Assembly (NCBI GenBank): GCA_000002445.1
Contig: CP000067.1
Coordinates: 32,001 to 96,000 of the forward strand
From: Trypanosoma brucei
Taxonomy: Eukaryota
DNA: 64,000 bases
Reading direction: 5' to 3'
In this document: one piece after another, positions 48,881 to 64,000 of the stretch
How positions within the stretch are numbered: position 1 is the first letter of the stretch
How the letters are laid out: the number at the start of each line of letters is the position of its first letter
Position numbers and translations under genes: made by a program
The notes under the pieces: generated by a model
The model's database searches: none
What the model was told of the DNA's origin: nothing
The model's input: only the letters and a program-made list of their open reading frames with translations

Positions 48881-50080
48881 TTAGGCGTCCAAAACAATGT
48901 GCTCTTGTGCTAGCCCGTCAGTATCGATGGCTTCACAGTGCCGGATGGCATACAAAATCCGGTCACGCATAACATCAATTGAACTGTAGGCGGGTATACG
49001 GAGTGTAAAGAAACAAGTATTACTGGTTGGAAGGGAGTCACGGGTCCCTCCCCTTTTAACTTTGATGTTTTCCTTGAGCGGCAGCCTTGTTTGTCCCGTT
49101 GTAAAGCGGAGAAGCAGCATCCGGTCTTTATCACACATAGTTTCAATAACTTCGTCAAACATTTGTGAATCGTTTGAGGGGAGAGAGACCTCACAAACGT
49201 CACGCAGTGCTTGACAAGATAACTTAGGCGTCCCACAAATGATCAACTCCACTTGCTGCCAGCGGAAGGCATTGAGTGTGTACAAGGGGATTACTTGACC
49301 GAACCCATGCCGAATATGGCTGATCACCACATCATACTTGTGAACTTCGATGGAGGCAATATGTTCTGCGAGTATTCCCGCAGTACGAAGATCCACAGGC
49401 GGCAATTCCTCCCGCATTCTAAGGTGAGAATTTTCACTACAGAATCTCAACCAACTCTCCTGTAGGCCTGGAAATCTCTCCTCCAGCTCCTCAGCCGTCC
49501 GCTCTGCTAACGCCTCCGGTGTTAATTGCCTCATTATGTCACGATCCATGGCCCTCAGGTCACGCAGTGATGTTTCCTCGCTAAGTAAGAGTTTCCAAAA
49601 CAGTGGTGGAAACTCCACGGCGAGGAGATCTTTGGTAATAAAACACGCTGCGAGAAACTTCCCGAAAAACTCGAACATGGGAAACAGCTGAAATTCAAGA
49701 GCCATTGTTGCATTTGGCATCACGGCCAACTGCCCATCACAACCGCAGTCCTTAAAGAGGGGATTCTGTTGGAATTTCCCGCTTGGGTGTGTTGACATAA
49801 TCTCTGTCGCAAGCTGTGATAGAATATCGCGGTAAGGTCCCCCCACGTCCGTAGATCCAAAACCGGCAAGCTTTACGGTGAACATGGGCGAGACATAGAA
49901 GATAGAAATCGGACTTCGCTGAAGCTGCGCGAACAACTGTCCGAACACGGAACGCATTAGCGTTGGGTAAAAACCGTAGCGCACAGAGGCCCGGGCGTGC
50001 ATTGTATGAATGGTAACTTTCCCTTTGTGCCCCGTGCGATTTCTGAAAGGCCGCATTGTCTCATTTTGGATTTTTTTTGA
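48881..50080 (-). other. HECT catalytic domain (N- and C-lobes) of the giant ligase.
   Basis: Motifs as listed for the parent gene. Confidence 0.8.
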
Positions 50081-53000
50081 AGACTCTGCAGAGCAAAGGC
50101 TCTTAAGCTTCTTCCACATTTCAAAAAGTTCTGTGCTGCGCCGAATGTCAACTACCACAGAAAAAACAGCCGTCAGTGTATCAAATATTTGTAGACGCTT
50201 AACATATGGTACGAGCCGCTCAATCGGAACATCGTTCCCCAGGACGTCAGCACCAAGGAAGGACAACAAGTGAGTATATTCCACTAAATCATGGGAAGGA
50301 ACAGTCAACGACGCATCACCGTTAGGGGAAACAAGCAACTTCTCTGATATCGAAAAGGTTTGACAAAACAGGGACAATTCAGCATAAAATTCGAACGATT
50401 GCGCGACAACCTCCGTGTCGAGGCGATGGGGATGTTCCTGGAACCTGCTGTAGAGTTGGGACACGTCCATACCAGTAGATGCTTCAGTGAGAAGTTGCTC
50501 ACCATGAAACGTTGCGTCTTCCCTTCTTTCCGCGAAGAACACCGGAAGTGCCAACATTTCGTTAGGAAATGTCTCAAATCGAGTAGTTGTTTCATTTTTC
50601 GACTCCCTCTGGAGATTAAATATAACGGCTTGCTCATGATATAAACACGTTACCAGAACAATGTCGCCACCTTTTGCTCTCACTTGCAATGGCTGCGATT
50701 CTTTTTTACGGCTTAGACAAAGATGTATCTTTCCATTTGGCTTTATGAGGTAACCACATGACGGTAACAAAGTGCTGGCCGACGACTGATCCTTATCTGA
50801 CGTACCTGCTGCTAGGGAACCCGGTAGTGAAGCATCCATGTTCCATCCAACGACAACATTTCCACATCGTGCAGAGTTCAAAACTACTTCGAATTTTTTC
50901 GAACCGAATGTACATCGAAACGTTTGGGAGAAGACACCGTAACAGCTACAGTACCCCTCGGGTGATGTTGGGCCGGTCAGTAGCTCAAAGCTGATACGGT
51001 GTGACTCCTGTTGCCCTCGCGTGAAAGCCTCGGGTAAAGGCCGTGGTGGTTTGGATGTAACCGCTTCGATGGCCAACTTCGTGCAAATGACAATGGCATA
51101 CGGTACACAACTCTGCCTCCCAGGAGCTGGTAAACTGGGTCGCTCCAGTTGATAACGCTGCAGAAGCTCACTCACCAGCAATATACCCAACTGTACAAAC
51201 GTACAGGACATCTTCCCCCTCTGACACATGCTACTTATCACAGCTAGAAGTGGAGCAAGTGATGCGCAAAGGGCTTCATGTGATGGCAGCGGGCAATTGC
51301 TCATTTTAAGCAACTGAAGCACGCATCGCAGAGCAACATTTCTTACCGCACGTACATGTGCCGTTGCGGTGCGAAGCAATAAAAGCATCAATGTTGATCC
51401 GAATGATGTCGACAGAAGATGGATGACGCCATCAAGGCTGAGCGACACATAAATGAGGTTGACGCTAACTTCCACGTTTTCTGCACTTTGCGCAGCGAAT
51501 GGCGCCGCAAGGCATGCGTAAGCGGCCGCAAGCAGAAAAAATGAGGATCTGCGGACCTCCGCCCGAACCAAAGCAGTGAGGGAGGACAAATCATTCCGCA
51601 GTGTAGTGTACGGAAGCAGATGTTGTAGTGTCTTGAGTGTATCCGATGAATTGCAACTCATGATGACGGTACCAATCAGTTTCTTCGCATACGACACCAT
51701 GGCCTCTTCAACTTGTGGTATAAGACTCGACTCACCACCACTTTGAATTCCTATAGCTGGTGTATTCCATGAGTGCTGACCGAGAGACCCCATCCCCTGC
51801 GAAACATTGGGTGAGATGCGGTCAATCATCAGTTGGGTCCATATTGTATCCATTGCACTGCGTTGAACGGGTGAATCTTCCTTGTGCAACACACGCCAAT
51901 GCACGACTTTGACGGAAGTACCGGGAGCAGAGAGCGTAAATGAAAGCTGCATATCTGCCGGGCAGTCCCTCCCTTGTAACACTTCGTATACCGTCTCCCC
52001 GTTCACCACCACAAGAGCGCGTTTCGCCCAGGGTATAACGCGAATGTAAAGTCGAACACATTTGACGGAAGATGTCGGCAATATGAGCGATTCACCATGA
52101 ACAGGAATTATCGGGATGGGTACGTCCACAAACCAAGCTGTTGGGGGATGTTGAAAAGTAACCCGCGCGGGAAACTGCACGGAGGTACACACCAGGAGCT
52201 CTATCTCATGTAACTTGAGTCCCTCGATCACTGGTTTTGTCACGGTGCACGATTGTGGGCCAATACTTGAGACGTGTTGAACACAACCGTTTGAAATCGT
52301 GACGTGTTGTGGAGAAGCTGAGAATGTCACCTCTTCCTCTACCCACGGTTGTTGTCGCTGAAACTTCAGCAGCAAACGGCGTCGGTGGTTTTGCCTTTCC
52401 AAGATTGGTGACAAGTCACGTTCGGCATCCTCCTTTGTCTGGGGTACATCACAAAAAGGTAAAGATACTGCGGAGACATCGCTACGGTAAGTGACGCAAG
52501 AAGCAACTGAAAACTTTGGTGTTTCATGGGGTACCGCGCAGCACTTGAGAGCGAATCCGTTAAAGAGAAGGTTGTGCTCAAGCGGCACACTTGTATCATA
52601 GGAGAAAACGGCAGTGTCATCCTCAAACTGAGTAAAATCGCAGTTGTAGCTCCTCGCGTTTACGAAGACACTAAGGGGGAAAATATCTTCGCAAGTTGGA
52701 ACAGGGCCGTAAACCAAAAATAGCGCCGCCTGCGAGAGATCGTCCTGTAATTTTTTAACTATCCGGTATCCACCGTCCTCTAATGAAGTTACACAACGTC
52801 CCAACTCATCCACATAAATAAAGATGTGCTTCTTTCCGTCTAATGACTCGACCTTAGAAAGGTCCTCTCCGTCAGTGCCCTCCGACGAACTCACAAAAAG
52901 CGAGGAGCCCTGTACACTGCTTATCTCCTTTACGGAAACTATGCATGACGTCCGAATCGGATCTGACACCCACCAAAAAAAATCACCTTCAGTGGTGAGA

Positions 53001-56000
53001 CGATCCGTGACTGCACACTGGTTACAGATCCGTCTGTTGAACTGAAGTTTGCTGCTTTGCATGTGCGGGGGGTTTAAGCTTCCTAAAGACAGGTAACGGC
53101 CGCAGATAACTCCGCGGAGATCATCCTCCAGTTGCCTCCAGGCAGGCGAGTCATCGAATGATACTCTAGAAACAGTCTCCCACTGCACCCATTCCATTCT
53201 GGTTCCTCCGAGAAAAATAAGCCGTTGTTCGCCGCTTTCACAAAGGATTAAACCACGCCCTAACGATTCGACCGTTACGGGCCCTCCGACAGGTCGATTA
53301 AATTGGAGATCTCTCGCGTTTACGCGTTGGCATAGGTAACTCCGATAACCGCATGACTGCGATGGAATCGTGTACGTAATTCCTCCATGAAGAAGCTGCT
53401 TCTCCTTCTGAATGCTTGAAAATGGTAGCGTACATGTAGTTACCCTCCCCGCCGTAATTCCAATATATTTATCCTCCAAAGCAACATTTGACAACCCTGG
53501 TCTTCCGTCCTCCGACACTGTGTAGAACATGATACTACTGTGGTTTGTGGTATGAAGAAAGAAAGCCACATGCTCCCCTGGAGAGATGGTTATAGACTCA
53601 AACCCCTCTACTTTCGCTTCAACGCCTCGTGCAAGCTCCATATCCCTTCGCATGACAACTTGCCACTCACCGCCTTGCTCTTCAACTCCTCTGAAAGTCC
53701 CATTACGCATAAAGAGAGTTACGGTCGCGGTAGATGTTGTGTCAGAGACAAAATACACCTTTACAATGTTCACCTTATTTCGTTTCGCAATAACATCAAA
53801 CATAATCCCGCTGCACGAGTTACCAGGAATGCACGCTTGGCGGCCCGTTTGAAGAAATATTGTCTCCTCTCCGGCACTCTTTTTGGCATCGTCTGCAAAC
53901 TCCCTTAGTTGATCAAGAATGTATGAAATTGTCATATTACCCTTTTCCAGCATGCCTGCAGCGGACCGGAAACCTTCCTCACATATTAGAAAGGTGCTGA
54001 ACATACGAAGGAGTTGGGCACAGCTCCACAAATCACCCTTCATATCACGTGTTCCTTGTCGCTGAAGCTGTGGGGAGGCGAAATGATCGTATCGACGTAA
54101 GGTATAAACATTCCAAACTGCGCATGTGACCGTGGCTCCTCGGCCAGTTTTCACATACACATTTTTCGGGTGGATGTTGCCGTGGATTAGAGAATGCAGG
54201 TGCCAGTGCTCCAACGCGGCAAGGAGGGACATAACAATGGATTTCTGTTGTTGTTTGGAGAATCTTTCCATGTCTAAGGAGTTAAGAGTGCCGTCAAACC
54301 AGCCATGCGTAATAACACCAAAACTTTTTGAGGAGTCCAATGACTGCATTATGTCCTCTTGGTACATTACACACGGATGCTTTGTTACTACGTTAAAGGA
54401 CGTAACAGTTATTTCGGGGTCATCATGGCTAAATATGTGCAGTGTTCGCTTGCTTGTTGTGTTGTCGTCAAAATATAGTAAACGAACCATAGAGCTTCCA
54501 CCGACCCTACCAATAACCTCGTATGCGCTAGGCAACCGTATAAAAGTGTCCCCTTCATCTGCGGTTCCAGGAATGAAAACGTGCGGTTTATCCAGCGGTG
54601 ACGACAAAGCATCCACTACCCTCCGAACCGCAGTTTGACCGCAAAATTCCTCAAGCTTTTTGTCCTCAACTCGAATCATCTCACGCGAAAAAGCACCCAC
54701 CTCCGCGAGTTGCTTAAGAGCATTTGACAATCTGTAAGCAAGTTTCGAGTTCCCGCAATGGTCACACCAAATGAGTTCAATGGCAGTCACACGATCTGAA
54801 GGTAGACTGTAGAGTACATGTCGAAGTACGGTGTACGTTGAAACCACTACGCGGAACGGTATTCGGCGAAGAATAGTCGGTGTTATTGGGTGTGATGCCA
54901 GCACCACGGAAGGTGGTGCTCTAAACTTTCCGGCTCCCAATGCACCACCGTAAAAGGTAGCAAGCGTGGCGGACGCATTAGCATGGTCCAAACGAACAAA
55001 GGGAGACACGCTCAGATTGGAAGGTATATTGTGAAAGACAACCCTTGGGGACTCATTGTTACGTGCTAAAGAAAGGGTTCCATTGTCACGATCAAGAAGA
55101 AAATGCAACTTTGTTCCCGCAAGAAACATCGTGTTGCCTGACGAGTCAATAGGGGGAATTCGTTCCTGTGTGGGTAAAGAGTCGCCGTCGAGAACATCTT
55201 GCACTATCCAAACCTGGTCAACTTGCTCACGAAGTTTCACGAAGTGCGGCTCCAGCTGGTCGAAGGTCGATACCACAATTCCAGCAAAGTGCCCAGAACC
55301 AAGTGAATCACCTCCGGCACGGTCACTGCGGGTTATTTGCACAACAAATCCCGACAAACCAACTGTTGGAAGTGGGGACCCAATCACTGCTTGCCCGGAT
55401 GCATCATTACAGCTTGCCGTGCGACCTTTGTTCGAAATGACTACTTTGGACGGATTACACAAAGTCCACACGGGGGTGTATTCCACAACACCCTCAGACC
55501 AGCTCCTTGATCTTGTGGATATGCCTCTGTCGATCACCTCTCGTGGTGAATGGAGGTAGAGGCTAGTAGGATGAGGCCCTACGTTCATAACTGCTATCTT
55601 CGGTGAAATCCCCTTCAACGACGAGCCAACGTGCTCCCTGTATGAGACATGGCAGCGAACGTTGTCATCCTCATCGTACACGACAAAATCGTTATCAGCT
55701 GTGAATGCGAGAGTAAGTTCTTCGTCACGTGCGAGGCTGAAGCTGCGGTGAATCACACTGTTTCGACTCCCTTCCCAGTTTATCTTAAAAATAGGTCTAA
55801 ACAGTTGGACGAGCACTTCCAAAAAGAAAACATTGGCACTTGTCGCAGACACTGCCCCCAGCTTCCAGAAGCGTGGCTTATTCACTGGCCAGGCACCTGT
55901 GCTGAACACTCCCTCAAGCTCGCATGCTTCGCTTGGTTTCAATTCTACTGTGTCATACCCCCCTGCCCAGCGCCACGGATGTGACACCGAACTCATGAAA

Positions 56001-59000
56001 GGCGTAGGTGGTGGGAACGTCATCTCACAAATTGAGAGACGCAAACAGTCACAACCCCTTCTCTTAACGAAGAAGCAATACTGCGAGGGAGCAAACACTC
56101 CTAACTGCTCGTGAAGCGGTCCTCCGTGAGCTGCGTAATATGTTGCAGGTTCGTAGAGGATATCCTGCTCGATATCATCACCAAAAACAATGTGCAAAGA
56201 GACTTGCAACAGTTTGGGGCGTGATTTGCTGCTTAAACGTAGTGGAAGATCGGTGACGAACGCAACTCCCCAGGAGTCCCCGAGGGGAGTAAACAAAAGG
56301 GAGACAAACGCAGCCAGATTTTCATTATATACAAAGGGACAGGCAAAGCTGCAGCACTTTTCGTTCCATCCGTCTTCGTGAAGAAGCTCCGGTGATAACA
56401 TGTATTCTACGCTACCTGAATCCAGCGCTCTACCCGAAATCGAGTCGTGCCTCCTTGCTTTGATAATTCTATCAGCGGCAAAATTTGTCGACCTTGTGTG
56501 GCGCACCAAAGACGATGCACACGCGCTGCCAGCATCAAAGGACAAGTTCCACCGTTGAGCAATGTACCGTGCTAATATGCTAATCAGATGTTCTTCCTCC
56601 CTTAAAGCAGGAAAATGGACAGTTCCTGTCGCCTGGCATACGCTTTCGACAGCAAAGGGTTGGTGGCACCAGCCACACTCAATAACAGGAACTAAACAAT
56701 CTACTGGTACCGTGACACAGACGGGAGTACCACCCCTACCAACCTCTACCGCGACTTGGGATTTAATATCGGGATCACTGACTAGACGCACCAGCTCCCC
56801 GGCGGAAAACTCCCCTGACCCCAGTGCGATGACAGCAAGATCTCCCTTGCACAGCGAATTGAAGTATGCCACACCATTCACACCAAACGGTAGTGTCACA
56901 ACACCATCACCCAAGGCGTCTGTAAGATTCCCGTTTACCACACCACTCAACAGATCTTCAGATATTTCTTGCCTACCAACGTTTCCCGGTCGCGCCTTCA
57001 CAAGCTTTCCAAGGGATTCAATCACACCAGTATCTTCAAAGGGTTGCGTAACCGAAAACGGCCCGCTGGCAAAAGCCACTAGCGCTGTCAGAAGGCGCGT
57101 AATGACAAACCCCTGTACTGCGGGGAAAACAGCCATGTTACGTCCCAGTAAGCGCCGTTGAACAATAAGACGGTAGGTGACACGCCCACGAAAGGCACGA
57201 GGTTCTGATGGTATCTCCAAGAAAGGTACAATCCCCTCGCTTTTCTTTCCAACATAAATTGTCAAAACCCCGTCGCTCTCGAATTCGTCGCCCACATCGC
57301 CAACGTGCCCATCGCTGCTGTTATAAAACCGGACTCCACAGCTGGATGTTGTGTTGACATACAAAGCGTACATCTGATTCGCCCGCAGTTGAAGATTGAG
57401 TGGACCCGGAGAAAAGGTCTGCTTATCTGCCAGGTAAAGGTACCGAGTTGCGACCTCTTTCCATTTTGAAGGGACCTTTTCAGCGCCCTTCATACTTCCC
57501 TCCTTCCAGAAAACTCTGACATTTATGTTATCCGCTGTTGTTTGAGAAATGCAGAATATTTCTTCCAACAACACATCCTGCTTGCTGCGGATGTCGAACA
57601 TGATGCCGTTGTATGATGCTGAATTGTTTTGGCTGAGATGCCCACCCGTCGATATAGCGGAAAGAACCTCTGACACGCTCATGGGGTTTGCAGGTACGGC
57701 AAGAATATTACCCACAAGTCCTCGGACAGAGAAAAAGGTATTGCTTACACAGTGACCCTGCTCGCTGCAGGTAAAAAAACATCGTATCCGCTCCCTTCCT
57801 CTTTCCCTTACCATGCCCATAGTTCGTTCACAGACAGCACTGAAGACATAAGTCCCCCTTTTCATTTTAAGTTGGAGTTTATTCATTACGATTCTGTGTG
57901 AGCACTCTTTCGGGAGCAATACCTCATGATGTACCCAGACCCAATTCCTCTCTCTCGATGTCACACCCTCGGTAGAGTCGTTCACGTCAGCGCAATACAG
58001 AGAAACATGAAAGCTCATCGGACCTATAGTGTGCCCCACGTAGGGTTGAACAAAAACGGGTAGTAGAAGCTCTCGCAGCACAACCGGACCATCAAAAACA
58101 GTAACAACAAATTCAGCTCTTTCCGAAAGAGTAGACATTTGGGGGCGACTGACCAGTGGCAGATGATCGCTGCACCCATCATTATTCCTTTCATCCCACT
58201 CTCGCCACACAACAGAATCAGTTTCCTCCACTGCGAGAGCCTGTGCCTCTTCACTACGCACGTACACTATGGAACCGCAAAACCCGCAAGAGTTGGAACT
58301 AACATCAGTAAAGGGGGTGCTACTCTCGCTGGTGCGCCCCATCAAAACTGTGAGGGTACCGTCGGAGTCCATTTCCGATGAAACGGCCCCCGAGCAACCT
58401 CCCTCCTTCGCGTAATGGCCGACTCCAAAGTTGTGCGTAGCGTTGATGTATAAAGCGAAAGTTGAGCCGCCTTCAATACGGATTCCGTGAAACGTAACGG
58501 AGAACTGACGACCCGCGCGCATCTTAACAAAGTTAGAGAATATCTTCGTCCACGAGCCGCTAGTCCGTTCATGCATCTGGTGAGAACCCTTCTTGAAAAA
58601 TACTTCCACCCGATGGCGTCCCGAAGCGTGGGTGAGAACGGTCAAACCGGTCAGCACAACCGAATCCTCAGCTCGAACATCAAACATAATACCATTGTAG
58701 GACTCGTTGCGTAAAAGCCTGAATTTTGTGCTCCCCACAACAAACACACGCGTGACGCTGCCATCGGGGGCTTTCAGAGCGGGATATGGGGGTTGTAAAA
58801 CTTTGTGTGGTCCCTCGTTGTCCAGCACATAGATGCTGTTTTTATCCAGGGAGAAGCAGACACGCTTATCCGTTTCGTCGCATACGTTGACTGTATTGCC
58901 CCCTATTGACGTGACAAGCCCACGTTTGGGCTGAACGAGGCTTCCGGCTTTGAAGGCCACCTTAGCACCCACTACAATAGCGGCCGCATCAGCGGAAAGC

Positions 59001-62000
59001 GCACAGTGGCGAACATCGCGTTTCCGCACAACGTACTCTCGCTTTCCTTGGCACGGGCACAAACACTTCACAACCCCAACTCCAGAACCACATGTGCGGA
59101 CGACCCTCCCCAGATGAGCCTTTCCAAATAGTGGCGGCACCACCGTTGCAGTCATTCCACGCGTCGAAAGGTAAGCAACAAGCCGAGGCCGATGCAATAG
59201 AGTCTCCGGAGGGATCGTATATGTCGCTATCAGCAGACCGTTGCGGTACGCGGCCACTTCCCTGTCCACTCGCTCGACCGTTATTGTGTCGCCAATAGAA
59301 AAGAGTATCCCAGTACCCTCCTCTGCTATACGCGGCGCAACCTTCCAAGCGGTTCCGCATTGAGCCATGGTGTAGCTAAGAGTGTCGAAGAGAAGATTGT
59401 TGCAGCCCATAATGCCAATGTCAGGACCTATACAGTTACTTGGAATGAGTCCAACGGCCACTGAAGAGGAATTTATATCCAAAGCATCATCATTGACGGA
59501 AACCCATCCACCTGTAGAAGTAACCTGGCATGGTGTGCGCGTGAACACAATCACACGCAAATTCGTGTCTTCTTCAATGGGGCAGTTGCACGTCGCCACG
59601 GTCGGGTGAAGATGAAGACCGCGAAGGGAGGAACTCAGCATAATGGATCCCTTTGTCATATCAACTGAGAGATATACACTGCGAGGCGTAGCCGCTTTAG
59701 TTTTGGAGTCACTCCATGTGCCCCAGATGTTACCGTGTGCTATGCGGCGCTCAAACTCCGCGGAAGTCATGACGCGGTAATCACACTCTTCGCTCGTTAC
59801 ACCCACAAAAATCGCAGAGGCATCAACTGGCGACGGCTCAATATCCTCATCAAGAAAAAGCATACTAACCACAACTTTTGAGCTGTTAGGAATCACAGTC
59901 GGGCTGATCAAGATCATGTTACTCTTAATTGATACACTTGTTTGCAGAAGGTTATTTACACACCACAGCAAATCGAAGGAGTGTAAACCTCCAAATGAAA
60001 AGCCGTCAACACCAGCAACGTGGCTAACGGTCACATCAACACGGGAGTCTCCATAGGTGGAAAAGTCATCTAGCACAGCAAAGGCAGCGCCATCAGTCGC
60101 TATACAGGTACTTCCATCGATTTGGACATTAACACTTTTATCACGCATCCATGCAAACGCTGCGGTTTCCATAAAACCAACAATGCTGCCAACGACCAAC
60201 TCCTTCGGGCTGTGCTGCGACAAAAGATAATCCGTAAGGTTATCGTTGTGATCGGTGAAGTGAAACATACATTTTGGGTAACGCCAACTATTGAAACACT
60301 CAGAGCACAGACAAATTCCACCTTCCCCCTCGTACCACGCCTCCAACATCTCCGAACCGCACGATGCGCACAGCACCGGAGGAGTGCTACGTGTCAGGGC
60401 ACTAATGTTGCTGGGGGGGTATGTGTTTCGCGCAGGGAATGTGTGGCAGTCAAGAAATGAGAAGACAACAACCGAATCCGGTCCAGTAAGCACGAAGGGC
60501 CTCAGCTTTTTCTCTTCAGGTATCTTCTCAAACAAAACACCAAAATCAACGCACTTACCACCACGAACACGAGAAAATGAAGCTGTTCCTTCCTGCCTAT
60601 TCACTTTGATAATTACTACATCATCCGAGTCAAACAACAATTGCCCGGCACTGTATATCATACCAGGCTCCACGAAACAGTTCGTGTTATTAGTTCCCTC
60701 TGAATCACGGTTACATAAGGCCCAAATATTTTCGCACCGTACTATCGCCTGGGGTTCTGCCGGCTCCTCTGTTTCTGCCGTTACGCCGATGTACATAAGC
60801 GTCCCTTTACTCTCTGCAATTGTGATACTTACGGCAAAGGAGAATACGTCCTCAAGCACAACGTTGCCTCGCACCGCTGAGTAGTGCGCAGCCGAGGTTA
60901 CACCGATCGACGGGCTTGGTGTGAACAGACTTTTCGTGGAGAAACGTCGGTCGATAACAACAGGTGTCCTCGACATGGGTTGTTGGCCGTTAACCATGCG
61001 GAACGAAGAAGATGTTGATTGAGTCGCTGAGACGGGAGCATTGCGCCTCAGTAAGGTCACAGAGCCTTTTTGGTTAGTTGTTTCATGACGTATTATTTGA
61101 AGAGCAGTATATTCCATATTCATTGCATCAGTAATTGTTTTAACAAAATTTTCCGCGATGTCCATTCTCTGCTCCTTTTCATCGTTCATTAGCGGCACGA
61201 CCGCAGATGCTTCAAACAAAATTCTTCTTAACCCGCTGGTTAACCAGCCACAACACCTCAAACTCTCTCCCTCCGAAACCGAAAAAAGCGCAGGCATTAC
61301 GAAGGAGGGCTTCAGGTCTGCAACATCTGTAGAGAATTGCCTCCCATCCGGATCGGCCTCAAGGTAAACCACAGCTCTTGATGCAGATTCGGATATGGAA
61401 TCTACAACGACGGGACCGTGCGTTTTATGTTGGCAGAAGAGTCCACTTCTTTCACCACCCAATATGGCTAGTGCGACTATACATTTTTCGAGGTCATAAC
61501 TAGACCGAACAAAGAAGGAATATATCCAATCCGATATCGCTGGGCCGAAGTATGGAGTGACGTGGAGTTGTTGAAGGACACTAACCGCCACACCCCGTCG
61601 CAAACTGGAAAGCAATAATTCACATGATTCCTTTACCTGTGAGGGGTCAGCGATAATATCACAAACCGCGTCTTCGTTGAAGTGGAACACAAATGGATAT
61701 AAATCATCGACACGGTGAATGTTTGCGAAGGCCAATCCGATGCGCACCATGTTTTCTCTGTAGTATGTTATCTCCCCTACATCAGCGTTTAGTTCAACCC
61801 ACACAACTTCATCACATCCGTAAACCCTCCGCTGACTGTTACGGGGAATGGTTTGGCGGCGCAGAAGGAGGTGTGGCACCTGATCACCGTCGTCAGCGTC
61901 TTGCAAAATGTAAACGTCATCCCTAGAAATTAAACTTGCCATAGTGGTAACAGGTGTATGCCCATGTGAGAGACCGATGTAATAGCAACCCCCCAGCGAT

Positions 62001-63979
62001 GCACCAACTCCATGGCCCATTTGCATTTGGCGGCGGATGCGGAAACCAACTTTATGAGTCCCTCTTGCAGGTAGTGGCTTCTCCCCATAAAAAGCACCCC
62101 CACCGGTGACTCGGGTCCGACCACCCGTCCACCGTGGAATGAAGGCGCGTTGCGAACACTCGGGATAGATTTTTGCGCGTGCAAGCTCCGTAAGAGAATT
62201 CACAATGACATCGGGGGACATGGAACCTCGTAATGCCTCGACAGCCTCTGCAAAACAGTCCTGCCGTAGTGTACGTGCCATGTGGCCAAGGGAGCGAGCC
62301 GCACGTGCTTTCACCCAGTGATCATGAGCCTCGCTTAATGTAATCGAACAAATTCGTAATATTTCGAGGTGGGCCGAGCGACTAACTAGACTGCAACGAA
62401 AACTATCAATAACGACGTTAACTATGCGAAAAAGTCTCGTTAGTAAAACACCACCAATATGGAGTCTTTGCCTCTTGAGTAAGTGAGTGCTTTCATCACT
62501 GTATAGGTGTTTGAGACTCGTGACAAGTTCAACAACAACATCTCTAAGAAATACGGAGGCTTCCTCAAGCAGCGCACAAATAGAATCCCCATTCGCATTG
62601 AAGCCGGGTTGGCCAAGCCGTTGTAGATTCTTCAAGCATACGGTTACGAGATAATGCACGGCAATAAACGAAGCATCACTAATCATAACAGGCGAAACGG
62701 TTTGAGTCCGACAAGAGCTGTGCAGAGAAGCCATATCAAATTCGAACGGAGCGTTTTCTCCGAAGTTCACTATCAGTTTGACGAGCATTCCATCCGTCTG
62801 CACGGCAACAAATGGTATAATGGTGGAAAAGGTACATTCGGTAGCAATTCCTAGAAATTCCCCGTTGCGAGTAAAGAATAAACTGGAAGATGGGGCCATA
62901 ATGCCGCAGCCAATGACGTCTCCGACCGACCAAGGAGTCGAAAATTCCACATTAGCGTTGGAATACCTTACAGTTCCATCTGAACAAAAAGCTGCTGAAC
63001 AATCCTTTCCGACTGACTCACACGACGAAATGGAGGAACTTGTAACACCAATGCAAACAAAAACCTCCTCATTGAGAGCAAGTTCGAGAGTTATTTCAAA
63101 GTACAAAACCTCCGCCATATCAGCCAACACACACCCACCAGCGAGAGCTGCATAGCAATCCCGTTGAGCTGGTGACATATCAAATGCCTCCTCTGCTTTA
63201 AAGGCTCTCCACTGATTACGTGCTAAGAAACATATGTCGGCACCTTCAACATGTACGCCCAGTGTATCACCCTCCACTACTGTAGCACCATCCGCTGCAG
63301 GCTGTAATGAATTTGGTACAATGACGCTACGATAAAGCAAATTAAATAAGCCACGATCCTGTAAGAAACGGTGCCACGCAATATCAGTGCTGCTTCCATT
63401 AAGTGGAGTGACTACCGTATCTGCAATCGGTGCGAGAATATAGGTTTTAAGAACGCGGAAAACTTTCGACGGATTTATTGCGGAAAGGTCCACACTGTCC
63501 CATGGGTGGCAAAGAACGGCACACAGAGAAAGCGCCTCCATACCCCTTGACGCCTCGCATTGCAGCTTGGCCTCAACTATTCGCGAAAAATTGCGGTGAA
63601 TAACACAGTGAAAAAAGCTACAGGTTGCCCTCTGGAGCTCCAGTTCCCGCTGGAACCCACAACCAATAATTGGCTCAATGTAGTGAACCTCCGTCAGATC
63701 CTCTAAAGTAGCCTCGCTATAACCAGAGTTAGTACGGACATTATTGGAGGCTTCGTTGCTGTATTCACGGCGCCTCGATCGTATAAACTCCCTGTAGAAA
63801 AGGTGTGAGTTCACGATTAACCACGACATATCCTCATCTAGTTGGTGAGAAGACAACAGTTTTTCCTGAAGCCTGAGTACGGCCTTGTTATTGCTGGCGT
63901 ACCTTGCTTTTTCAACAAGTGCCCTTACCAAATCCTCGTTCGTAACACCGTTACACCCATTAAGAAGAAATTTGAACAC
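48881..63979 (-). CDS. Giant HECT-domain E3 ubiquitin-protein ligase (partial). At least 5032 codons fall inside the window, and the N-terminus extends past the window end.
   Basis: The C-terminal ~400 aa form a canonical HECT domain (AGFGSTDVGGPYRDILSQLATE ... FEFFGKFLAACFITKDLLAVEFPPLFWKLLL ... TCFFTLRIPAYSS with the catalytic Cys). The reading frame stays open through position 64000, since the codon at 63977-63979 is GTG and not a real start. Confidence 0.9.
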   Translation of the reverse strand: MFKFLLNGCNGVTNEDLVRALVEKARYASNNKAVLRLQEKLLSSHQLDEDMSWLIVNSHLFYREFIRSRRREYSNEASNNVRTNSGYSEATLEDLTEVHYIEPIIGCGFQRELELQRATCSFFHCVIHRNFSRIVEAKLQCEASRGMEALSLCAVLCHPWDSVDLSAINPSKVFRVLKTYILAPIADTVVTPLNGSSTDIAWHRFLQDRGLFNLLYRSVIVPNSLQPAADGATVVEGDTLGVHVEGADICFLARNQWRAFKAEEAFDMSPAQRDCYAALAGGCVLADMAEVLYFEITLELALNEEVFVCIGVTSSSISSCESVGKDCSAAFCSDGTVRYSNANVEFSTPWSVGDVIGCGIMAPSSSLFFTRNGEFLGIATECTFSTIIPFVAVQTDGMLVKLIVNFGENAPFEFDMASLHSSCRTQTVSPVMISDASFIAVHYLVTVCLKNLQRLGQPGFNANGDSICALLEEASVFLRDVVVELVTSLKHLYSDESTHLLKRQRLHIGGVLLTRLFRIVNVVIDSFRCSLVSRSAHLEILRICSITLSEAHDHWVKARAARSLGHMARTLRQDCFAEAVEALRGSMSPDVIVNSLTELARAKIYPECSQRAFIPRWTGGRTRVTGGGAFYGEKPLPARGTHKVGFRIRRQMQMGHGVGASLGGCYYIGLSHGHTPVTTMASLISRDDVYILQDADDGDQVPHLLLRRQTIPRNSQRRVYGCDEVVWVELNADVGEITYYRENMVRIGLAFANIHRVDDLYPFVFHFNEDAVCDIIADPSQVKESCELLLSSLRRGVAVSVLQQLHVTPYFGPAISDWIYSFFVRSSYDLEKCIVALAILGGERSGLFCQHKTHGPVVVDSISESASRAVVYLEADPDGRQFSTDVADLKPSFVMPALFSVSEGESLRCCGWLTSGLRRILFEASAVVPLMNDEKEQRMDIAENFVKTITDAMNMEYTALQIIRHETTNQKGSVTLLRRNAPVSATQSTSSSFRMVNGQQPMSRTPVVIDRRFSTKSLFTPSPSIGVTSAAHYSAVRGNVVLEDVFSFAVSITIAESKGTLMYIGVTAETEEPAEPQAIVRCENIWALCNRDSEGTNNTNCFVEPGMIYSAGQLLFDSDDVVIIKVNRQEGTASFSRVRGGKCVDFGVLFEKIPEEKKLRPFVLTGPDSVVVFSFLDCHTFPARNTYPPSNISALTRSTPPVLCASCGSEMLEAWYEGEGGICLCSECFNSWRYPKCMFHFTDHNDNLTDYLLSQHSPKELVVGSIVGFMETAAFAWMRDKSVNVQIDGSTCIATDGAAFAVLDDFSTYGDSRVDVTVSHVAGVDGFSFGGLHSFDLLWCVNNLLQTSVSIKSNMILISPTVIPNSSKVVVSMLFLDEDIEPSPVDASAIFVGVTSEECDYRVMTSAEFERRIAHGNIWGTWSDSKTKAATPRSVYLSVDMTKGSIMLSSSLRGLHLHPTVATCNCPIEEDTNLRVIVFTRTPCQVTSTGGWVSVNDDALDINSSSVAVGLIPSNCIGPDIGIMGCNNLLFDTLSYTMAQCGTAWKVAPRIAEEGTGILFSIGDTITVERVDREVAAYRNGLLIATYTIPPETLLHRPRLVAYLSTRGMTATVVPPLFGKAHLGRVVRTCGSGVGVVKCLCPCQGKREYVVRKRDVRHCALSADAAAIVVGAKVAFKAGSLVQPKRGLVTSIGGNTVNVCDETDKRVCFSLDKNSIYVLDNEGPHKVLQPPYPALKAPDGSVTRVFVVGSTKFRLLRNESYNGIMFDVRAEDSVVLTGLTVLTHASGRHRVEVFFKKGSHQMHERTSGSWTKIFSNFVKMRAGRQFSVTFHGIRIEGGSTFALYINATHNFGVGHYAKEGGCSGAVSSEMDSDGTLTVLMGRTSESSTPFTDVSSNSCGFCGSIVYVRSEEAQALAVEETDSVVWREWDERNNDGCSDHLPLVSRPQMSTLSERAEFVVTVFDGPVVLRELLLPVFVQPYVGHTIGPMSFHVSLYCADVNDSTEGVTSRERNWVWVHHEVLLPKECSHRIVMNKLQLKMKRGTYVFSAVCERTMGMVRERGRERIRCFFTCSEQGHCVSNTFFSVRGLVGNILAVPANPMSVSEVLSAISTGGHLSQNNSASYNGIMFDIRSKQDVLLEEIFCISQTTADNINVRVFWKEGSMKGAEKVPSKWKEVATRYLYLADKQTFSPGPLNLQLRANQMYALYVNTTSSCGVRFYNSSDGHVGDVGDEFESDGVLTIYVGKKSEGIVPFLEIPSEPRAFRGRVTYRLIVQRRLLGRNMAVFPAVQGFVITRLLTALVAFASGPFSVTQPFEDTGVIESLGKLVKARPGNVGRQEISEDLLSGVVNGNLTDALGDGVVTLPFGVNGVAYFNSLCKGDLAVIALGSGEFSAGELVRLVSDPDIKSQVAVEVGRGGTPVCVTVPVDCLVPVIECGWCHQPFAVESVCQATGTVHFPALREEEHLISILARYIAQRWNLSFDAGSACASSLVRHTRSTNFAADRIIKARRHDSISGRALDSGSVEYMLSPELLHEDGWNEKCCSFACPFVYNENLAAFVSLLFTPLGDSWGVAFVTDLPLRLSSKSRPKLLQVSLHIVFGDDIEQDILYEPATYYAAHGGPLHEQLGVFAPSQYCFFVKRRGCDCLRLSICEMTFPPPTPFMSSVSHPWRWAGGYDTVELKPSEACELEGVFSTGAWPVNKPRFWKLGAVSATSANVFFLEVLVQLFRPIFKINWEGSRNSVIHRSFSLARDEELTLAFTADNDFVVYDEDDNVRCHVSYREHVGSSLKGISPKIAVMNVGPHPTSLYLHSPREVIDRGISTRSRSWSEGVVEYTPVWTLCNPSKVVISNKGRTASCNDASGQAVIGSPLPTVGLSGFVVQITRSDRAGGDSLGSGHFAGIVVSTFDQLEPHFVKLREQVDQVWIVQDVLDGDSLPTQERIPPIDSSGNTMFLAGTKLHFLLDRDNGTLSLARNNESPRVVFHNIPSNLSVSPFVRLDHANASATLATFYGGALGAGKFRAPPSVVLASHPITPTILRRIPFRVVVSTYTVLRHVLYSLPSDRVTAIELIWCDHCGNSKLAYRLSNALKQLAEVGAFSREMIRVEDKKLEEFCGQTAVRRVVDALSSPLDKPHVFIPGTADEGDTFIRLPSAYEVIGRVGGSSMVRLLYFDDNTTSKRTLHIFSHDDPEITVTSFNVVTKHPCVMYQEDIMQSLDSSKSFGVITHGWFDGTLNSLDMERFSKQQQKSIVMSLLAALEHWHLHSLIHGNIHPKNVYVKTGRGATVTCAVWNVYTLRRYDHFASPQLQRQGTRDMKGDLWSCAQLLRMFSTFLICEEGFRSAAGMLEKGNMTISYILDQLREFADDAKKSAGEETIFLQTGRQACIPGNSCSGIMFDVIAKRNKVNIVKVYFVSDTTSTATVTLFMRNGTFRGVEEQGGEWQVVMRRDMELARGVEAKVEGFESITISPGEHVAFFLHTTNHSSIMFYTVSEDGRPGLSNVALEDKYIGITAGRVTTCTLPFSSIQKEKQLLHGGITYTIPSQSCGYRSYLCQRVNARDLQFNRPVGGPVTVESLGRGLILCESGEQRLIFLGGTRMEWVQWETVSRVSFDDSPAWRQLEDDLRGVICGRYLSLGSLNPPHMQSSKLQFNRRICNQCAVTDRLTTEGDFFWWVSDPIRTSCIVSVKEISSVQGSSLFVSSSEGTDGEDLSKVESLDGKKHIFIYVDELGRCVTSLEDGGYRIVKKLQDDLSQAALFLVYGPVPTCEDIFPLSVFVNARSYNCDFTQFEDDTAVFSYDTSVPLEHNLLFNGFALKCCAVPHETPKFSVASCVTYRSDVSAVSLPFCDVPQTKEDAERDLSPILERQNHRRRLLLKFQRQQPWVEEEVTFSASPQHVTISNGCVQHVSSIGPQSCTVTKPVIEGLKLHEIELLVCTSVQFPARVTFQHPPTAWFVDVPIPIIPVHGESLILPTSSVKCVRLYIRVIPWAKRALVVVNGETVYEVLQGRDCPADMQLSFTLSAPGTSVKVVHWRVLHKEDSPVQRSAMDTIWTQLMIDRISPNVSQGMGSLGQHSWNTPAIGIQSGGESSLIPQVEEAMVSYAKKLIGTVIMSCNSSDTLKTLQHLLPYTTLRNDLSSLTALVRAEVRRSSFFLLAAAYACLAAPFAAQSAENVEVSVNLIYVSLSLDGVIHLLSTSFGSTLMLLLLRTATAHVRAVRNVALRCVLQLLKMSNCPLPSHEALCASLAPLLAVISSMCQRGKMSCTFVQLGILLVSELLQRYQLERPSLPAPGRQSCVPYAIVICTKLAIEAVTSKPPRPLPEAFTRGQQESHRISFELLTGPTSPEGYCSCYGVFSQTFRCTFGSKKFEVVLNSARCGNVVVGWNMDASLPGSLAAGTSDKDQSSASTLLPSCGYLIKPNGKIHLCLSRKKESQPLQVRAKGGDIVLVTCLYHEQAVIFNLQRESKNETTTRFETFPNEMLALPVFFAERREDATFHGEQLLTEASTGMDVSQLYSRFQEHPHRLDTEVVAQSFEFYAELSLFCQTFSISEKLLVSPNGDASLTVPSHDLVEYTHLLSFLGADVLGNDVPIERLVPYVKRLQIFDTLTAVFSVVVDIRRSTELFEMWKKLKSLCSAESSKKIQNETMRPFRNRTGHKGKVTIHTMHARASVRYGFYPTLMRSVFGQLFAQLQRSPISIFYVSPMFTVKLAGFGSTDVGGPYRDILSQLATEIMSTHPSGKFQQNPLFKDCGCDGQLAVMPNATMALEFQLFPMFEFFGKFLAACFITKDLLAVEFPPLFWKLLLSEETSLRDLRAMDRDIMRQLTPEALAERTAEELEERFPGLQESWLRFCSENSHLRMREELPPVDLRTAGILAEHIASIEVHKYDVVISHIRHGFGQVIPLYTLNAFRWQQVELIICGTPKLSCQALRDVCEVSLPSNDSQMFDEVIETMCDKDRMLLLRFTTGQTRLPLKENIKVKRGGTRDSLPTSNTCFFTLRIPAYSSIDVMRDRILYAIRHCEAIDTDGLAQEHIVLDA
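53340..53790 (-). other. Repeat module R3 (~150 aa beta-sandwich-like module beginning CSGIMFDV...).
   Basis: Homologous to R1 and R2: a (Y/S)xGIMFD(V/I) opening, then a hydrophobic-alternating strand pattern, with the S/T-rich middle most evident in R3. Confidence 0.5.
54000..54600 (-). other. Protein-kinase-like (probable pseudokinase) domain embedded in the HECT giant.
   Basis: Gly-rich loop-like IGRVGGSSMV. Catalytic-loop-like LIHGNIHPKNV, with HGN where active kinases have HRD. Subdomain IX-like DLWSCAQLL. No clear DFG motif. Confidence 0.5.
57170..57625 (-). other. Repeat module R2 (SYNGIMFDIRSKQDV...).
   Basis: Same module as R1 and R3. Confidence 0.5.
58250..58715 (-). other. Repeat module R1 (SYNGIMFDVRAEDSV...).
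   Basis: Same module as R2 and R3. Confidence 0.5.
62735..63292 (-). other. SPRY/B30.2-like domain near the N-terminal end of the visible part of the HECT giant.
   Basis: WSVGDVIGCGI ... LFFTRNGEFLG, a characteristic SPRY signature. Confidence 0.5.
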
Positions 63980-64000
63980 TAAGGTTGAAATACTCTCCGT

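What the first reader, a model, noticed from the sequence alone, without database searches (positions are those of the whole stretch)
54000..54600. Kinase-like domain with HGN in place of HRD inside the HECT giant (probable pseudokinase scaffold)
Residues around ...YEVIGRVGGSSMVRLLYFDD ... HWHLHSLIHGNIHPKNVYV ... GDLWSCAQLLRMF follow protein-kinase subdomain order (Gly loop, catalytic loop, subdomain IX). The catalytic Asp of HRD is replaced (HGN) and no DFG is evident, which is a pseudokinase hallmark. A pseudokinase inside an E3 ligase could act as a substrate or phospho-recognition module.
Basis: partly seen in the sequence, partly recalled or inferred. Interest (0 to 1): 0.6.

Follow-up and report, generated by a model that had tools for sequence, protein, structure and literature searches.

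The report
Dead kinase domain inside trypanosome HECT ligase
A giant ubiquitin ligase of Trypanosoma brucei carries, in its middle, a conserved protein-kinase-shaped domain that has lost every catalytic residue; it most likely serves as a docking or structural module, which is a modest addition to known biology rather than a surprise.

Summary
On the minus strand, 53876-54583 encodes a ~235-residue domain of the 6,613-aa SPRY/HECT protein of T. brucei TREU927 (XP_844181.1/Q57UU4). The window is identical to that protein over 5,039 residues.

The domain is a true protein-kinase homologue:
- Pfam Pkinase is below threshold on the T. brucei sequence (19.8 bits; cut-off 31.7).
- A metagenomic orthologue passes the cut-off (58.6 bits).
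- The orthologue profile finds only kinases in the PDB (best E 1.9e-7).
- hhalign against canonical kinases gives 98.9% probability.

It is catalytically dead. The beta3 Lys is His. The alphaC Glu and helix are missing. HRD is HGN (HGH, HTG, HSH or HGR in orthologues, never Asp). DFG is replaced by C-x-[LV]-W-N. The Gly loop is not conserved. The C-lobe is 42 residues shorter than in the deepest full-length orthologue.

The arrangement, pseudokinase followed by a PHR-like domain with the HECT domain about 1,250-1,700 residues downstream, is conserved across kinetoplastid-like lineages.

Function is inferred only: a non-catalytic docking or structural module. The gene is absent from the T. brucei and L. 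mexicana kinome lists I could search. This is a new member of a known kind.

The parts
48881..64000 (-). Giant ORF. It is the C-terminal 5,039 codons of a 6,613-aa SPRY/PHR/HECT E3 ligase; the N-terminal 1,574 codons lie beyond the window.
   Evidence: ORF list and translation. There are 0 mismatches to T. brucei brucei TREU927 XP_844181.1/Q57UU4 (P0020) over 5,039 aa, and 11 mismatches to T. b. gambiense.
53876..54583 (-). Pseudokinase (kinase-like) domain. Window codons 3140-3375, which is about residues 4714-4949 of the full protein.
54491..54511 (-). Remnant of the Gly-rich loop: GRVGGSS, i.e. G-x-x-G-G rather than GxGxxG.
   Evidence: hhalign aligns it to GTGSFGR of PKA. It is not conserved in orthologues: GILSNE, GYRNSD, GCVEGT, GTTTPS, HLVPEH.
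54431..54448 (-). Beta3 strand RTLHIF. His replaces the ATP-anchoring Lys of VAIK.
   Evidence: hhalign pairs RTLHIF with YAMKIL, so His pairs with Lys72 of PKA. Orthologues have H (6 of 9), R, I or F, never K. The Thr is invariant.
54161..54184 (-). Remnant of the catalytic loop: HGNIHPKN in place of HRDLKPEN. The catalytic Asp is Asn, the loop Lys is His, and the final Asn is kept.
   Evidence: phmmer and hhalign alignments. The His and the last Asn are invariant in 9 of 9 orthologues; the Asp position is N, H, G or R.
54110..54124 (-). CAVWN, the conserved C-x-[LV]-W-N motif at the end of beta8 where DFG should be. There is no acidic residue.
   Evidence: Motif table. DSSP places beta8 at domain residues 162-166. 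There is no Asp or Glu between domain residues 157 and 175 (read directly from the sequence). Aligners disagree on the exact residue equivalence.
54068..54079 (-). ASPQ, the remnant of the APE motif. It lies only about 13-16 residues after the DFG position, so the activation segment is short.
   Evidence: phmmer and hhalign alignments pair FASPQL with Y(I/L)APE. Orthologues have ASPE, ASHE, SAPE, AAPG.
54020..54037 (-). GDLWSC, the alphaF motif (subdomain IX). It retains the structural Asp that corresponds to Asp220 of PKA.
   Evidence: Aligned to D(V/W)WS of kinases. The Asp is present in all 8 orthologues that cover this part.
53354..53848 (-). Third PHR-like beta-sandwich domain ('GIMFDV' domain), directly C-terminal to the pseudokinase.
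48932..49720 (-). HECT ubiquitin-transferase domain at the C-terminus. The catalytic Cys context is retained (LPTSNTCFFTLRIP).
   Evidence: Pfam HECT E 6.3e-43. Sequence read. A HECT domain is present at the C-terminus of every full-length orthologue.
62792..63106 (-). SPRY domain (best Pfam stretch) in the N-terminal part of the ORF held in the window.
   Evidence: Pfam SPRY E 1.5e-22, two stretches.

Best explanation
Window 53876-54583 (minus strand) encodes a genuine but severely degraded eukaryotic-protein-kinase-fold domain, a pseudokinase. It lies about 1,250 residues upstream of the HECT domain in the 6,613-aa T. brucei SPRY/PHR/HECT E3 ligase. That protein is probably Tb927.4.310, the orthologue of L. 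mexicana HECT11.

Shown: it descends from a Ser/Thr kinase and keeps the structural skeleton. This comprises beta1-5, alphaE, the His and Asn of the catalytic loop, and the alphaF Asp. It has lost every residue needed to bind ATP/Mg and transfer phosphate, and this loss predates the divergence of all the orthologues recovered.

Inferred: it cannot phosphorylate and probably does not bind nucleotide. Together with the PHR-like domain fused to its C-terminus, it acts as a non-catalytic protein-binding module. It would dock a substrate or regulator (possibly a partner kinase), or brace the ligase architecture. The C-terminal HECT domain, which keeps its catalytic Cys, would then ubiquitinate what is held. 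In working terms it would resemble a Tribbles-type pseudokinase adaptor built into the E3 itself.
For: Kinase ancestry and fold:
- PDB sequence searches return only kinases: single sequence, best E 1.8e-5; orthologue profile, best E 1.9e-7.
- The metagenomic orthologue P0007 passes Pfam Pkinase (58.6 bits against a cut-off of 31.7, profile positions 74-260) and T. vivax nearly does (29.0 bits).
- P0007 is linked to the T. brucei domain at E 2.6e-17 in a library of 1.8 billion proteins.
- hhalign gives 98.9% probability.

Loss of catalysis:
- Lys72 is His, the alphaC Glu falls in an alignment gap and no alphaC helix appears in the DSSP assignment.
- Asp166 is Asn, Lys168 is His, and no acidic residue sits at the DFG position.
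- The Gly loop is not conserved, and none of 9 orthologues has Asp at the HRD position.

Selection for a non-catalytic role:
- Conservation of the domain equals the protein average (46% against 45% identity, T. brucei against T. vivax).
- The order pseudokinase, PHR, HECT is kept in T. vivax, T. rangeli, Porcisia and the deep lineages P0007 and P0010; the 2,953-aa L. tarentolae record shows the same order and the 1,309-aa Angomonas record keeps pseudokinase then PHR.
- New residues at former cleft positions are themselves conserved (His at beta3, C-x-[LV]-W-N).
- The HECT Cys is retained.

Biological relevance of the ligase: L. mexicana delta-hect11 loses at least 20-fold fitness in mice (orthology table).
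Against: No functional experiment exists for this domain, so the binding role is inference by analogy.

The T. brucei sequence alone fails Pfam's gathering score.

TM-scores to solved kinases are only about 0.5, so the fold deviates substantially: no alphaC helix and a shortened C-lobe.

The surfaces kinases usually use for partners are variable or deleted. These are alphaC, the activation segment and the alphaG region. That fits a purely architectural role about as well as it fits substrate docking.

Confidence: 0.6

Rival explanations
1. Architectural fossil. The domain is kept only as a folded spacer or brace within the 730-kDa ligase scaffold and binds no external ligand or protein.
For: The conserved positions are mostly core-fold elements: alphaE, the catalytic-loop backbone residues and the alphaF Asp. 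The typical partner surfaces (alphaC, activation segment, alphaG region) are variable or deleted. Conservation is only average for the protein.
Against: Former cleft positions carry a new conserved motif set (His at beta3, C-x-[LV]-W-N), which hints at selection beyond folding. The fixed fusion to a PHR-like domain, a fold found in substrate-recognition parts of other E3s (MYCBP2, BTBD2), suggests a recognition unit.
Confidence: 0.2
2. Nucleotide-binding allosteric pseudokinase. It still binds ATP or ADP without catalysis, as HER3, STRADalpha or JAK JH2 do, and uses this as a conformational switch that regulates the ligase.
For: The bilobal fold is retained and the catalytic-loop Asn is invariant. 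HER3 and PTK7 pseudokinases are among the matches.
Against: There is no beta3 Lys, no alphaC Glu or helix, no DFG Asp and no conserved Gly-rich loop in any orthologue. From general knowledge of pseudokinase classes, pseudokinases that lack all of these usually bind neither nucleotide nor cation.
Confidence: 0.08
3. Cryptic enzyme. The domain is active through relocated or non-canonical residues (as in WNK-type Lys relocation) or carries out different chemistry (as SelO and SidJ do). The His/Cys-rich cleft might bind a metal.
For: His, Cys and Asn residues cluster at former catalytic positions and are partly conserved.
Against: These candidate ligands are not uniformly conserved. The beta3 His is I or F in Angomonas and P0010. 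The HRD third position is N, H, G or R. No acidic residue is available at the base or metal positions in T. brucei. The Gly loop and alphaC are gone.
Confidence: 0.03
4. Chance resemblance: the segment is not a kinase fold at all.
For: Pfam Pkinase is below its gathering score on the T. brucei sequence and covers only profile positions 78-132. T. rangeli and L. tarentolae segments give no Pfam hit.
Against: Every independent line points to kinases and to nothing else.
Confidence: 0.01

Closest known systems
Tribbles pseudokinases (TRIB1/2/3) as substrate adaptors of the COP1 E3 ligase (comparison from general knowledge, not tested here)
   Same: Both are CAMK-like pseudokinases with a degraded Gly-rich loop, an altered DFG and a truncated or abnormal alphaC. 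Tribbles uses these features to present substrates to a ubiquitin ligase. The best sequence matches of this domain and of its deep orthologue are also CAMK-group kinases: Snf1, AMPK, BRSK2, CDPK1, DCLK1.
   Different: Tribbles is a separate protein that works in trans with a RING ligase through a C-terminal COP1-binding tail, and it keeps the beta3 Lys and the catalytic-loop Asp. Here the domain is fused in cis inside a HECT ligase and has lost both residues. No Tribbles entry appeared among the listed hits, so this is an analogy, not membership.
Leishmania HECT12 / 'TKUL' (LmxM.34.4000), a dual HECT ligase and protein kinase
   Same: It is a kinetoplastid protein that combines a kinase-fold domain with a HECT domain.
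   Different: It is a different gene of 147 kDa, classed as STE/STE11 and counted in the L. mexicana kinome. No T. brucei orthologue is listed for it. The present protein (HECT11 orthologue, about 730 kDa) is absent from that kinome list, and its domain is catalytically dead.
HECT proteins with 'unusual protein kinase domains' in Naegleria gruberi and Ectocarpus siliculosus (GL-Bikonta family, class IV; Grau-Bove et al. 2013, PMC3673628)
   Same: They show a HECT plus kinase-domain architecture in protists.
   Different: They belong to a different HECT class with divergent HECT domains. The survey describes an excavate SPRY-bearing family (HECTEx1) only as Laminin_G3 plus SPRY, with no kinase domain noted. 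Whether the present protein belongs to that family was not tested.
Fully degraded pseudokinases such as PTK7, ROR1, HER3, MLKL and IRAK3
   Same: They have a kinase fold with catalytic motifs replaced and a signalling or scaffolding role. PTK7 (6vg3) is hit by sequence profile at E 6.1e-6. HER3, ROR1, MLKL, IRAK3 and ULK4 are hit by structure.
   Different: Those retain an alphaC helix and a full-size C-lobe, and several still bind nucleotide. This domain lacks a predicted alphaC helix, has a short activation segment and has a C-lobe 42 residues shorter than its own deep orthologue.
Arabidopsis KEG (RING E3 with a kinase domain, ankyrin and HERC2-like repeats) (from general knowledge)
   Same: It is an E3 ligase polypeptide with a built-in kinase-fold domain.
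   Different: It is a RING ligase, not HECT. Its kinase domain has intact motifs. It is from an unrelated lineage.

Membership tests
Protein kinase superfamily (Pfam Pkinase PF00069 / ePK fold) | Pfam Pkinase gathering score reached by the sequence itself | tested here: not met
   19.2-19.8 bits against a cut-off of 31.7; only profile positions 78-132 are matched.
Protein kinase superfamily (Pfam Pkinase PF00069 / ePK fold) | Homology to kinases shown through orthologues or profiles | tested here: met
   Orthologue P0007 scores 58.6 bits (E 8.3e-16) over profile positions 74-260, and T. vivax scores 29.0 bits. P0007 is linked to the T. brucei domain at E 2.6e-17. The A1 profile against the PDB finds only kinases, best E 1.9e-7. 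hhalign gives 98.9%.
Protein kinase superfamily (Pfam Pkinase PF00069 / ePK fold) | Bilobal kinase fold: a beta-rich N-lobe, then alphaE, catalytic loop and alphaF in the C-lobe | tested here: met
   [not shown]
Catalytically competent protein kinase | Beta3 Lys (VAIK) paired with the alphaC Glu | tested here: not met
   His aligns with Lys72, and the alphaC Glu falls in an alignment gap. No helix lies between beta3 and beta4. Orthologues have H, R, I or F.
Catalytically competent protein kinase | Catalytic Asp of HRD | tested here: not met
   HGN in T. brucei; HGH, HTG, HSH or HGR in orthologues; never Asp.
Catalytically competent protein kinase | Metal-binding Asp of DFG | tested here: not met
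   C-A-V-W-N occupies the site, and there is no Asp or Glu in domain residues 157-175. The exact residue equivalence is ambiguous between aligners.
Catalytically competent protein kinase | Gly-rich loop GxGxxG | tested here: not met
   GRVGGS in T. brucei; not conserved in orthologues.
Pseudokinase (kinase fold lacking at least one of the VAIK Lys, HRD Asp or DFG Asp) | Kinase fold present and at least one of the three catalytic residues absent | tested here: met
   All three are absent and the fold is confirmed.
Pseudokinase, nucleotide-free class | No binding of nucleotide or divalent cation | not testable with these tools
   This needs model coordinates or biochemistry. It is only inferred from the loss of the Lys, Glu, Asp and Gly loop.
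Tribbles family | Retained beta3 Lys and catalytic-loop Asp, plus a C-terminal COP1-binding tail | tested here: not met
   The Lys and Asp are absent. The domain is internal and is followed by a PHR-like domain, not a tail. The COP1-binding motif itself was not searched for.
HECT E3 ligase (host protein) | C-terminal HECT domain with a catalytic Cys | tested here: met
   Pfam HECT E 6.3e-43. The Cys lies in LPTSNTCFFTLRIP, 39 residues from the C-terminus.
PHR domain (neighbouring 'GIMFDV' domains) | PHR beta-sandwich fold; Pfam PHR sequence match | tested here: inconclusive
   [not shown]

The most novel reading that the evidence does not exclude
The pseudokinase and its fused PHR-like domain form a built-in, Tribbles-like substrate receptor. 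A dead kinase would capture a specific partner, possibly an active AMPK/CAMK-like kinase through kinase-pseudokinase pairing. The HECT domain of the same polypeptide would then ubiquitinate that partner. This arrangement would have been conserved since before trypanosomatids diverged from the lineages of the two unnamed deep orthologues (P0007, metagenomic; P0010, from a sequencing-run assembly). It would also underlie the requirement for HECT11 during Leishmania infection.
Probability: 0.2. Interest if true: 0.6.

Novelty: new member of a known kind. Interest (0 to 1): 0.35.

Why it matters
The finding adds one pseudokinase to kinetoplastid kinomes. The gene ID inferred for it is not in the supplement tables I could search, either for the T. 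brucei kinome RNAi library of 190 kinases including 12 pseudokinases or for the L. mexicana kinome.

It also gives the first domain-level handle on the middle of a 730-kDa HECT ligase that was otherwise annotated only as SPRY plus HECT. The Leishmania orthologue of that ligase (HECT11) is needed for proliferation in mice.

A defined pseudokinase plus PHR unit can be deleted, mutated or expressed alone to find the ligase's substrates.

The series from the deep orthologue P0007 (which passes Pfam Pkinase and has a full C-lobe) to trypanosomatids (C-lobe 42 residues shorter) is a clear example of stepwise reduction of a kinase fold after catalysis was lost.

It does not overturn anything. Pseudokinases, and kinase-HECT fusions, are already known.

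Tried and rejected
1. The search for homologous proteins returned nothing, with the segment and with the orthologue alignment. Yet the protein and its orthologues are in the underlying collection. Orthologues came instead from the search of protein representatives.

2. A Pfam scan of the T. brucei segment alone gave only a sub-threshold partial hit. This was insufficient by itself.

3. Literature searches for pseudokinase + HECT + trypanosome and for accession or gene identifiers found no description of this domain. The only hit for 'Tb927.4.310' in main texts was the unrelated Tb927.4.3100.

4. I considered a structural Zn site formed by the His at beta3, the His at the HRD third position and the Cys at the DFG position. 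The ligands are not uniformly conserved: N in T. brucei, I/G in Angomonas, F/R in P0010. Geometry could not be checked, so the idea is kept only within the low-probability 'cryptic enzyme' rival.

5. The T. vivax Y486 representative P0006 appeared to have lost the domain. That record is labelled a fragment, and another T. vivax assembly (P0025, 6,613 aa) has the complete domain.

6. I could not assign the domain to a specific kinase group. The best hits lean towards CAMK/AMPK-like kinases but also include STE, TKL and PknB, so no assignment is made.

7. Model coordinates are not exposed to the scripting sandbox, so the ATP pocket and surface conservation could not be analysed.

8. TRF did not report the 5.4-kb RHS repeat because its longest period is 500. 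blastn did find it.
Full report
**1. What is at the coordinates**

The window carries a giant ORF on the minus strand from 48881 to beyond 64000. Its translation contains the three quoted motifs in a single frame:
- YEVIGRVGGSS... at 54464-54523.
- HWHLHSLIHGNIHPKNVYV at 54152-54208.
- GDLWSCAQLLRMF at 53999-54037.

The ORF translation is identical over 5,039 residues to T. brucei brucei TREU927 XP_844181.1/Q57UU4. That protein is 6,613 aa and is named 'hypothetical protein, conserved' or 'B30.2/SPRY domain-containing protein'. The translation differs at 11 residues from the T. b. gambiense protein. A window codon number plus 1,574 gives the full-length residue number.

The rest of the window holds retrotransposon-hot-spot (RHS) genes, all on the same strand, as expected for a trypanosome polycistron.

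Pfam finds SPRY (E 1.5e-22) in the upstream part of the ORF and HECT (E 6.3e-43) at the C-terminus. The HECT catalytic Cys context is retained. 'Inside the HECT giant' is therefore correct.

**2. Is it a kinase fold?**

On the T. brucei sequence alone the evidence is suggestive but formally sub-threshold. Pfam Pkinase gives E 6e-4 to 9e-4 and 19.2-19.8 bits against a gathering score of 31.7. Only profile positions 78-132 (alphaE and the catalytic loop) are matched.

The same segment searched against all PDB sequences gives 203 hits at E<=10. The 60 listed are all protein kinases. The best is Cryptosporidium CDPK1 at E 1.8e-5, aligned from the HPxxV motif through the catalytic loop, APE and subdomain IX and beyond.

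A HMMER scan of 1.84 billion representative proteins recovered orthologues:
- T. rangeli
- T. vivax
- Leishmania tarentolae
- Porcisia hertigi
- Angomonas deanei
- an unnamed 6,644-aa metagenome protein (P0007)
- a 7,728-aa protein from sequencing-run assemblies (P0010)
- a 141-aa fragment (P0008)

With their alignment (A1) the signal strengthens:
- The profile finds 66 PDB sequences at E<=0.01. The 60 listed are all kinases. The best is Snf1 at E 1.9e-7, and the pseudokinase PTK7 scores 6.1e-6.
- Five of nine members hit Pkinase individually.
- P0007 passes Pfam's own threshold (58.6 bits, E 8.3e-16, profile positions 74-260). T. vivax reaches 29.0 bits.
- The collection's precomputed annotation for P0007 reads SPRY (weak), Pkinase, PK_Tyr_Ser-Thr, HECT.
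- hhalign of A1 against six canonical kinase domains gives 98.9% probability and E 1.6e-16 over 208 columns, from beta1 to the end.

An AlphaFold2 model built from A1 has pLDDT 80.8 and pTM 0.80.
- Foldseek finds 1,833 PDB chains at E<=1e-3, headed by DCLK1, the HER3 pseudokinase and p38, with TM about 0.5.

No other fold competes.

**3. Anatomy: what is kept and what is lost**

The mapping comes and the DSSP assignment.

| Kinase element | State in this domain |
|---|---|
| Gly-rich loop | GRVGGS in T. brucei; unconserved in orthologues (GILSNE, GYRNSD, GCVEGT, GTTTPS, HLVPEH) |
| Beta3 | RTLHIF aligns with YAMKIL, so His replaces Lys72. Orthologues have H (6 of 9), R, I or F. The Thr is invariant |
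| AlphaC | The Glu falls in a five-residue alignment gap. The model has no helix between beta3 and beta4, although pLDDT there is 81-89 |
| HPCVM | Matches the usual HPNIV |
| AlphaE and catalytic loop | The best-conserved stretch: LEHWHLHSLIHGNIHPKN against xLxYLHxxxIIHRDLKPEN |
| Invariant residues | Seven in all: Glu, His, Leu and His in alphaE, the His of HRD, the final Asn of the catalytic loop, and the beta3 Thr listed above |
| HRD third position | N in T. brucei; H in most; G (Angomonas) or R (P0010); never Asp |
| Loop Lys | H, A, C, S or M |
| DFG | Replaced by the conserved motif C-x-[LV]-W-N at the end of beta8. T. brucei has no acidic residue from domain residue 157 to 175 |
| APE | ASPQ, only about 13-16 residues further on, so the activation segment is short |
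| AlphaF | The Asp in GDLWSC is present in all orthologues that cover it |

Aligners disagree on whether Cys164 or Trp167 occupies the Asp184 position. Without coordinates I cannot decide.

After alphaF the trypanosomatid proteins are shortened. The distance from the alphaF Asp to the 'MFD' motif of the next domain is exactly 78 residues in T. brucei, T. vivax, T. rangeli and Porcisia, but 120 in P0007. A global alignment places the 42-residue gap between alphaF and the subdomain-XI-like segment, pairing EKRPDVTEILD in P0007 with KGNMTISYILD in T. brucei.

P0007 still has DVWSAGIILWQL, GxxLPF and EKRP, i.e. a canonical C-lobe. It already lacks the HRD Asp and the DFG. Catalysis was therefore lost first, and deep in the lineage. 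The fold was trimmed later.

**4. Conservation and context**

The domain is as conserved as the rest of the protein: 46% identity between T. brucei and T. vivax, against 45% overall.

Every full-length orthologue, including P0007 and P0010, ends in a HECT domain. Each has three copies of a 'GIMFDV' domain, and the third always directly follows the pseudokinase.

**5. How it most likely works**

Shown: the domain is kinase-derived. All residues needed for ATP/Mg binding and phosphotransfer are absent in every orthologue. The fold and domain order are conserved, and the HECT Cys is present.

Inferred: the domain is catalytically dead and probably nucleotide-free. It would act as a non-catalytic protein-binding or bracing module, presumably together with PHR3, in the recognition part of the ligase. 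Tribbles pseudokinases deliver substrates to COP1 in a comparable way, but here the adaptor is fused in cis.

My confidence in the identity claim is about 0.95 or higher. My confidence in the whole statement, including function, is about 0.6.

The rivals are:
- a purely architectural fossil (0.2);
- a nucleotide-binding switch (0.08);
- a cryptic enzyme or metal site (0.03);
- chance resemblance (0.01).

The variable or deleted state of the usual partner surfaces (alphaC, activation segment, alphaG) is the main argument for the fossil rival. The newly conserved residues at former cleft positions, and the fixed fusion to a PHR-like domain, argue for a recognition function.

**6. Comparison with what is known**

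Grau-Bove et al. (PMC3673628) describe an excavate SPRY-bearing HECT family (HECTEx1) only as Laminin_G3 plus SPRY. I did not test whether this protein belongs to it. They note 'unusual protein kinase domains' in a different HECT family of Naegleria and Ectocarpus.

Burge et al. (PMC7647121) list L. mexicana HECT11 (LmxM.34.5390, 732.6 kDa) as the orthologue of Tb927.4.310. They show that delta-hect11 loses at least 20-fold fitness in mice.

The size, species and record length point to the present gene being Tb927.4.310. The record length of 1.59 Mb is that of chromosome 4 as I recall it. This assignment is an inference.

A 2026 preprint reports 14 ubiquitination sites on HECT11. [quoted passage not shown]

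LmxM.34.4000 is in the L. mexicana kinome (STE/STE11). LmxM.34.5390 does not occur in any of the 83 held supplementary files of that study.

Tb927.4.310 does not occur in the held supplements of the T. brucei kinome RNAi screen, which covers 190 kinases including 12 pseudokinases. One file in each set was truncated when stored.

None of the names that sources give the trypanosomatid orthologues mentions a kinase.

Kinase-HECT fusions and pseudokinases are thus both known kinds. This particular domain seems not to have been counted. I could not consult InterPro or TriTrypDB, which may already display a kinase-like superfamily match.

**7. Verdict**

The finding is a new member of a known kind. 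Interest is moderate to low (0.35). It is a tidy, useful annotation with a clear evolutionary story and a testable adaptor hypothesis. It is neither surprising to a specialist nor a key to an open question.

Noticed in passing
[not shown]
   Followed up: yes
window about 20600-46300: This is a tandem array of about 4.7 copies of a 5.43-kb unit at 97-98% identity. Each unit carries a 565-572-aa RHS ORF (DUF7578 + RHS_N + RHSP). Further RHS genes or fragments lie at 2907-4946, 7136-9331, 14048-15922 and 17436-19463, all on the minus strand.
   Followed up: partly
P0007 (locus L001:2583-22517) compared with window 53876-54040: The metagenomic orthologue keeps a canonical kinase C-lobe (DVWSAG, GxxLPF, EKRP) and passes Pfam Pkinase. 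Trypanosomatids are exactly 42 residues shorter between alphaF and the next domain. This suggests stepwise reduction of the fold after catalysis was lost.
   Followed up: partly
P0006 (T. vivax Y486 protein, 6,096 aa) compared with P0025 (T. vivax, 6,613 aa): The Y486 record lacks most of the pseudokinase domain, but it is labelled a fragment. Another T. vivax assembly has the complete domain. The apparent loss is therefore an assembly or gene-model artefact.
   Followed up: yes
window ORF, alphaE to catalytic loop, 54152-54211 (minus strand): The stretch is unusually His-rich: LEHWHLHSLIHGNIHPKN, with six His in 19 residues. The Cys at the DFG position is conserved. A metal site is conceivable, but the candidate ligands are not uniformly conserved.
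   Followed up: partly
whole ORF 48881-64000 (minus strand): Read by eye, the translation shows several further SPRY-like segments (for example around YYIGLS, MYIGVTAE, IFVGVTSE, HFAGIVVS, VVVGWNMD). Pfam reports only two SPRY stretches at E<=0.01. The domain map of this 730-kDa ligase is largely unannotated.
   Followed up: no
tool behaviour, not sequence: the search for homologous proteins found nothing for this segment or for its orthologue alignment. Yet the identical protein and its orthologues are in the collection according to the listing of cluster members.
   Followed up: no
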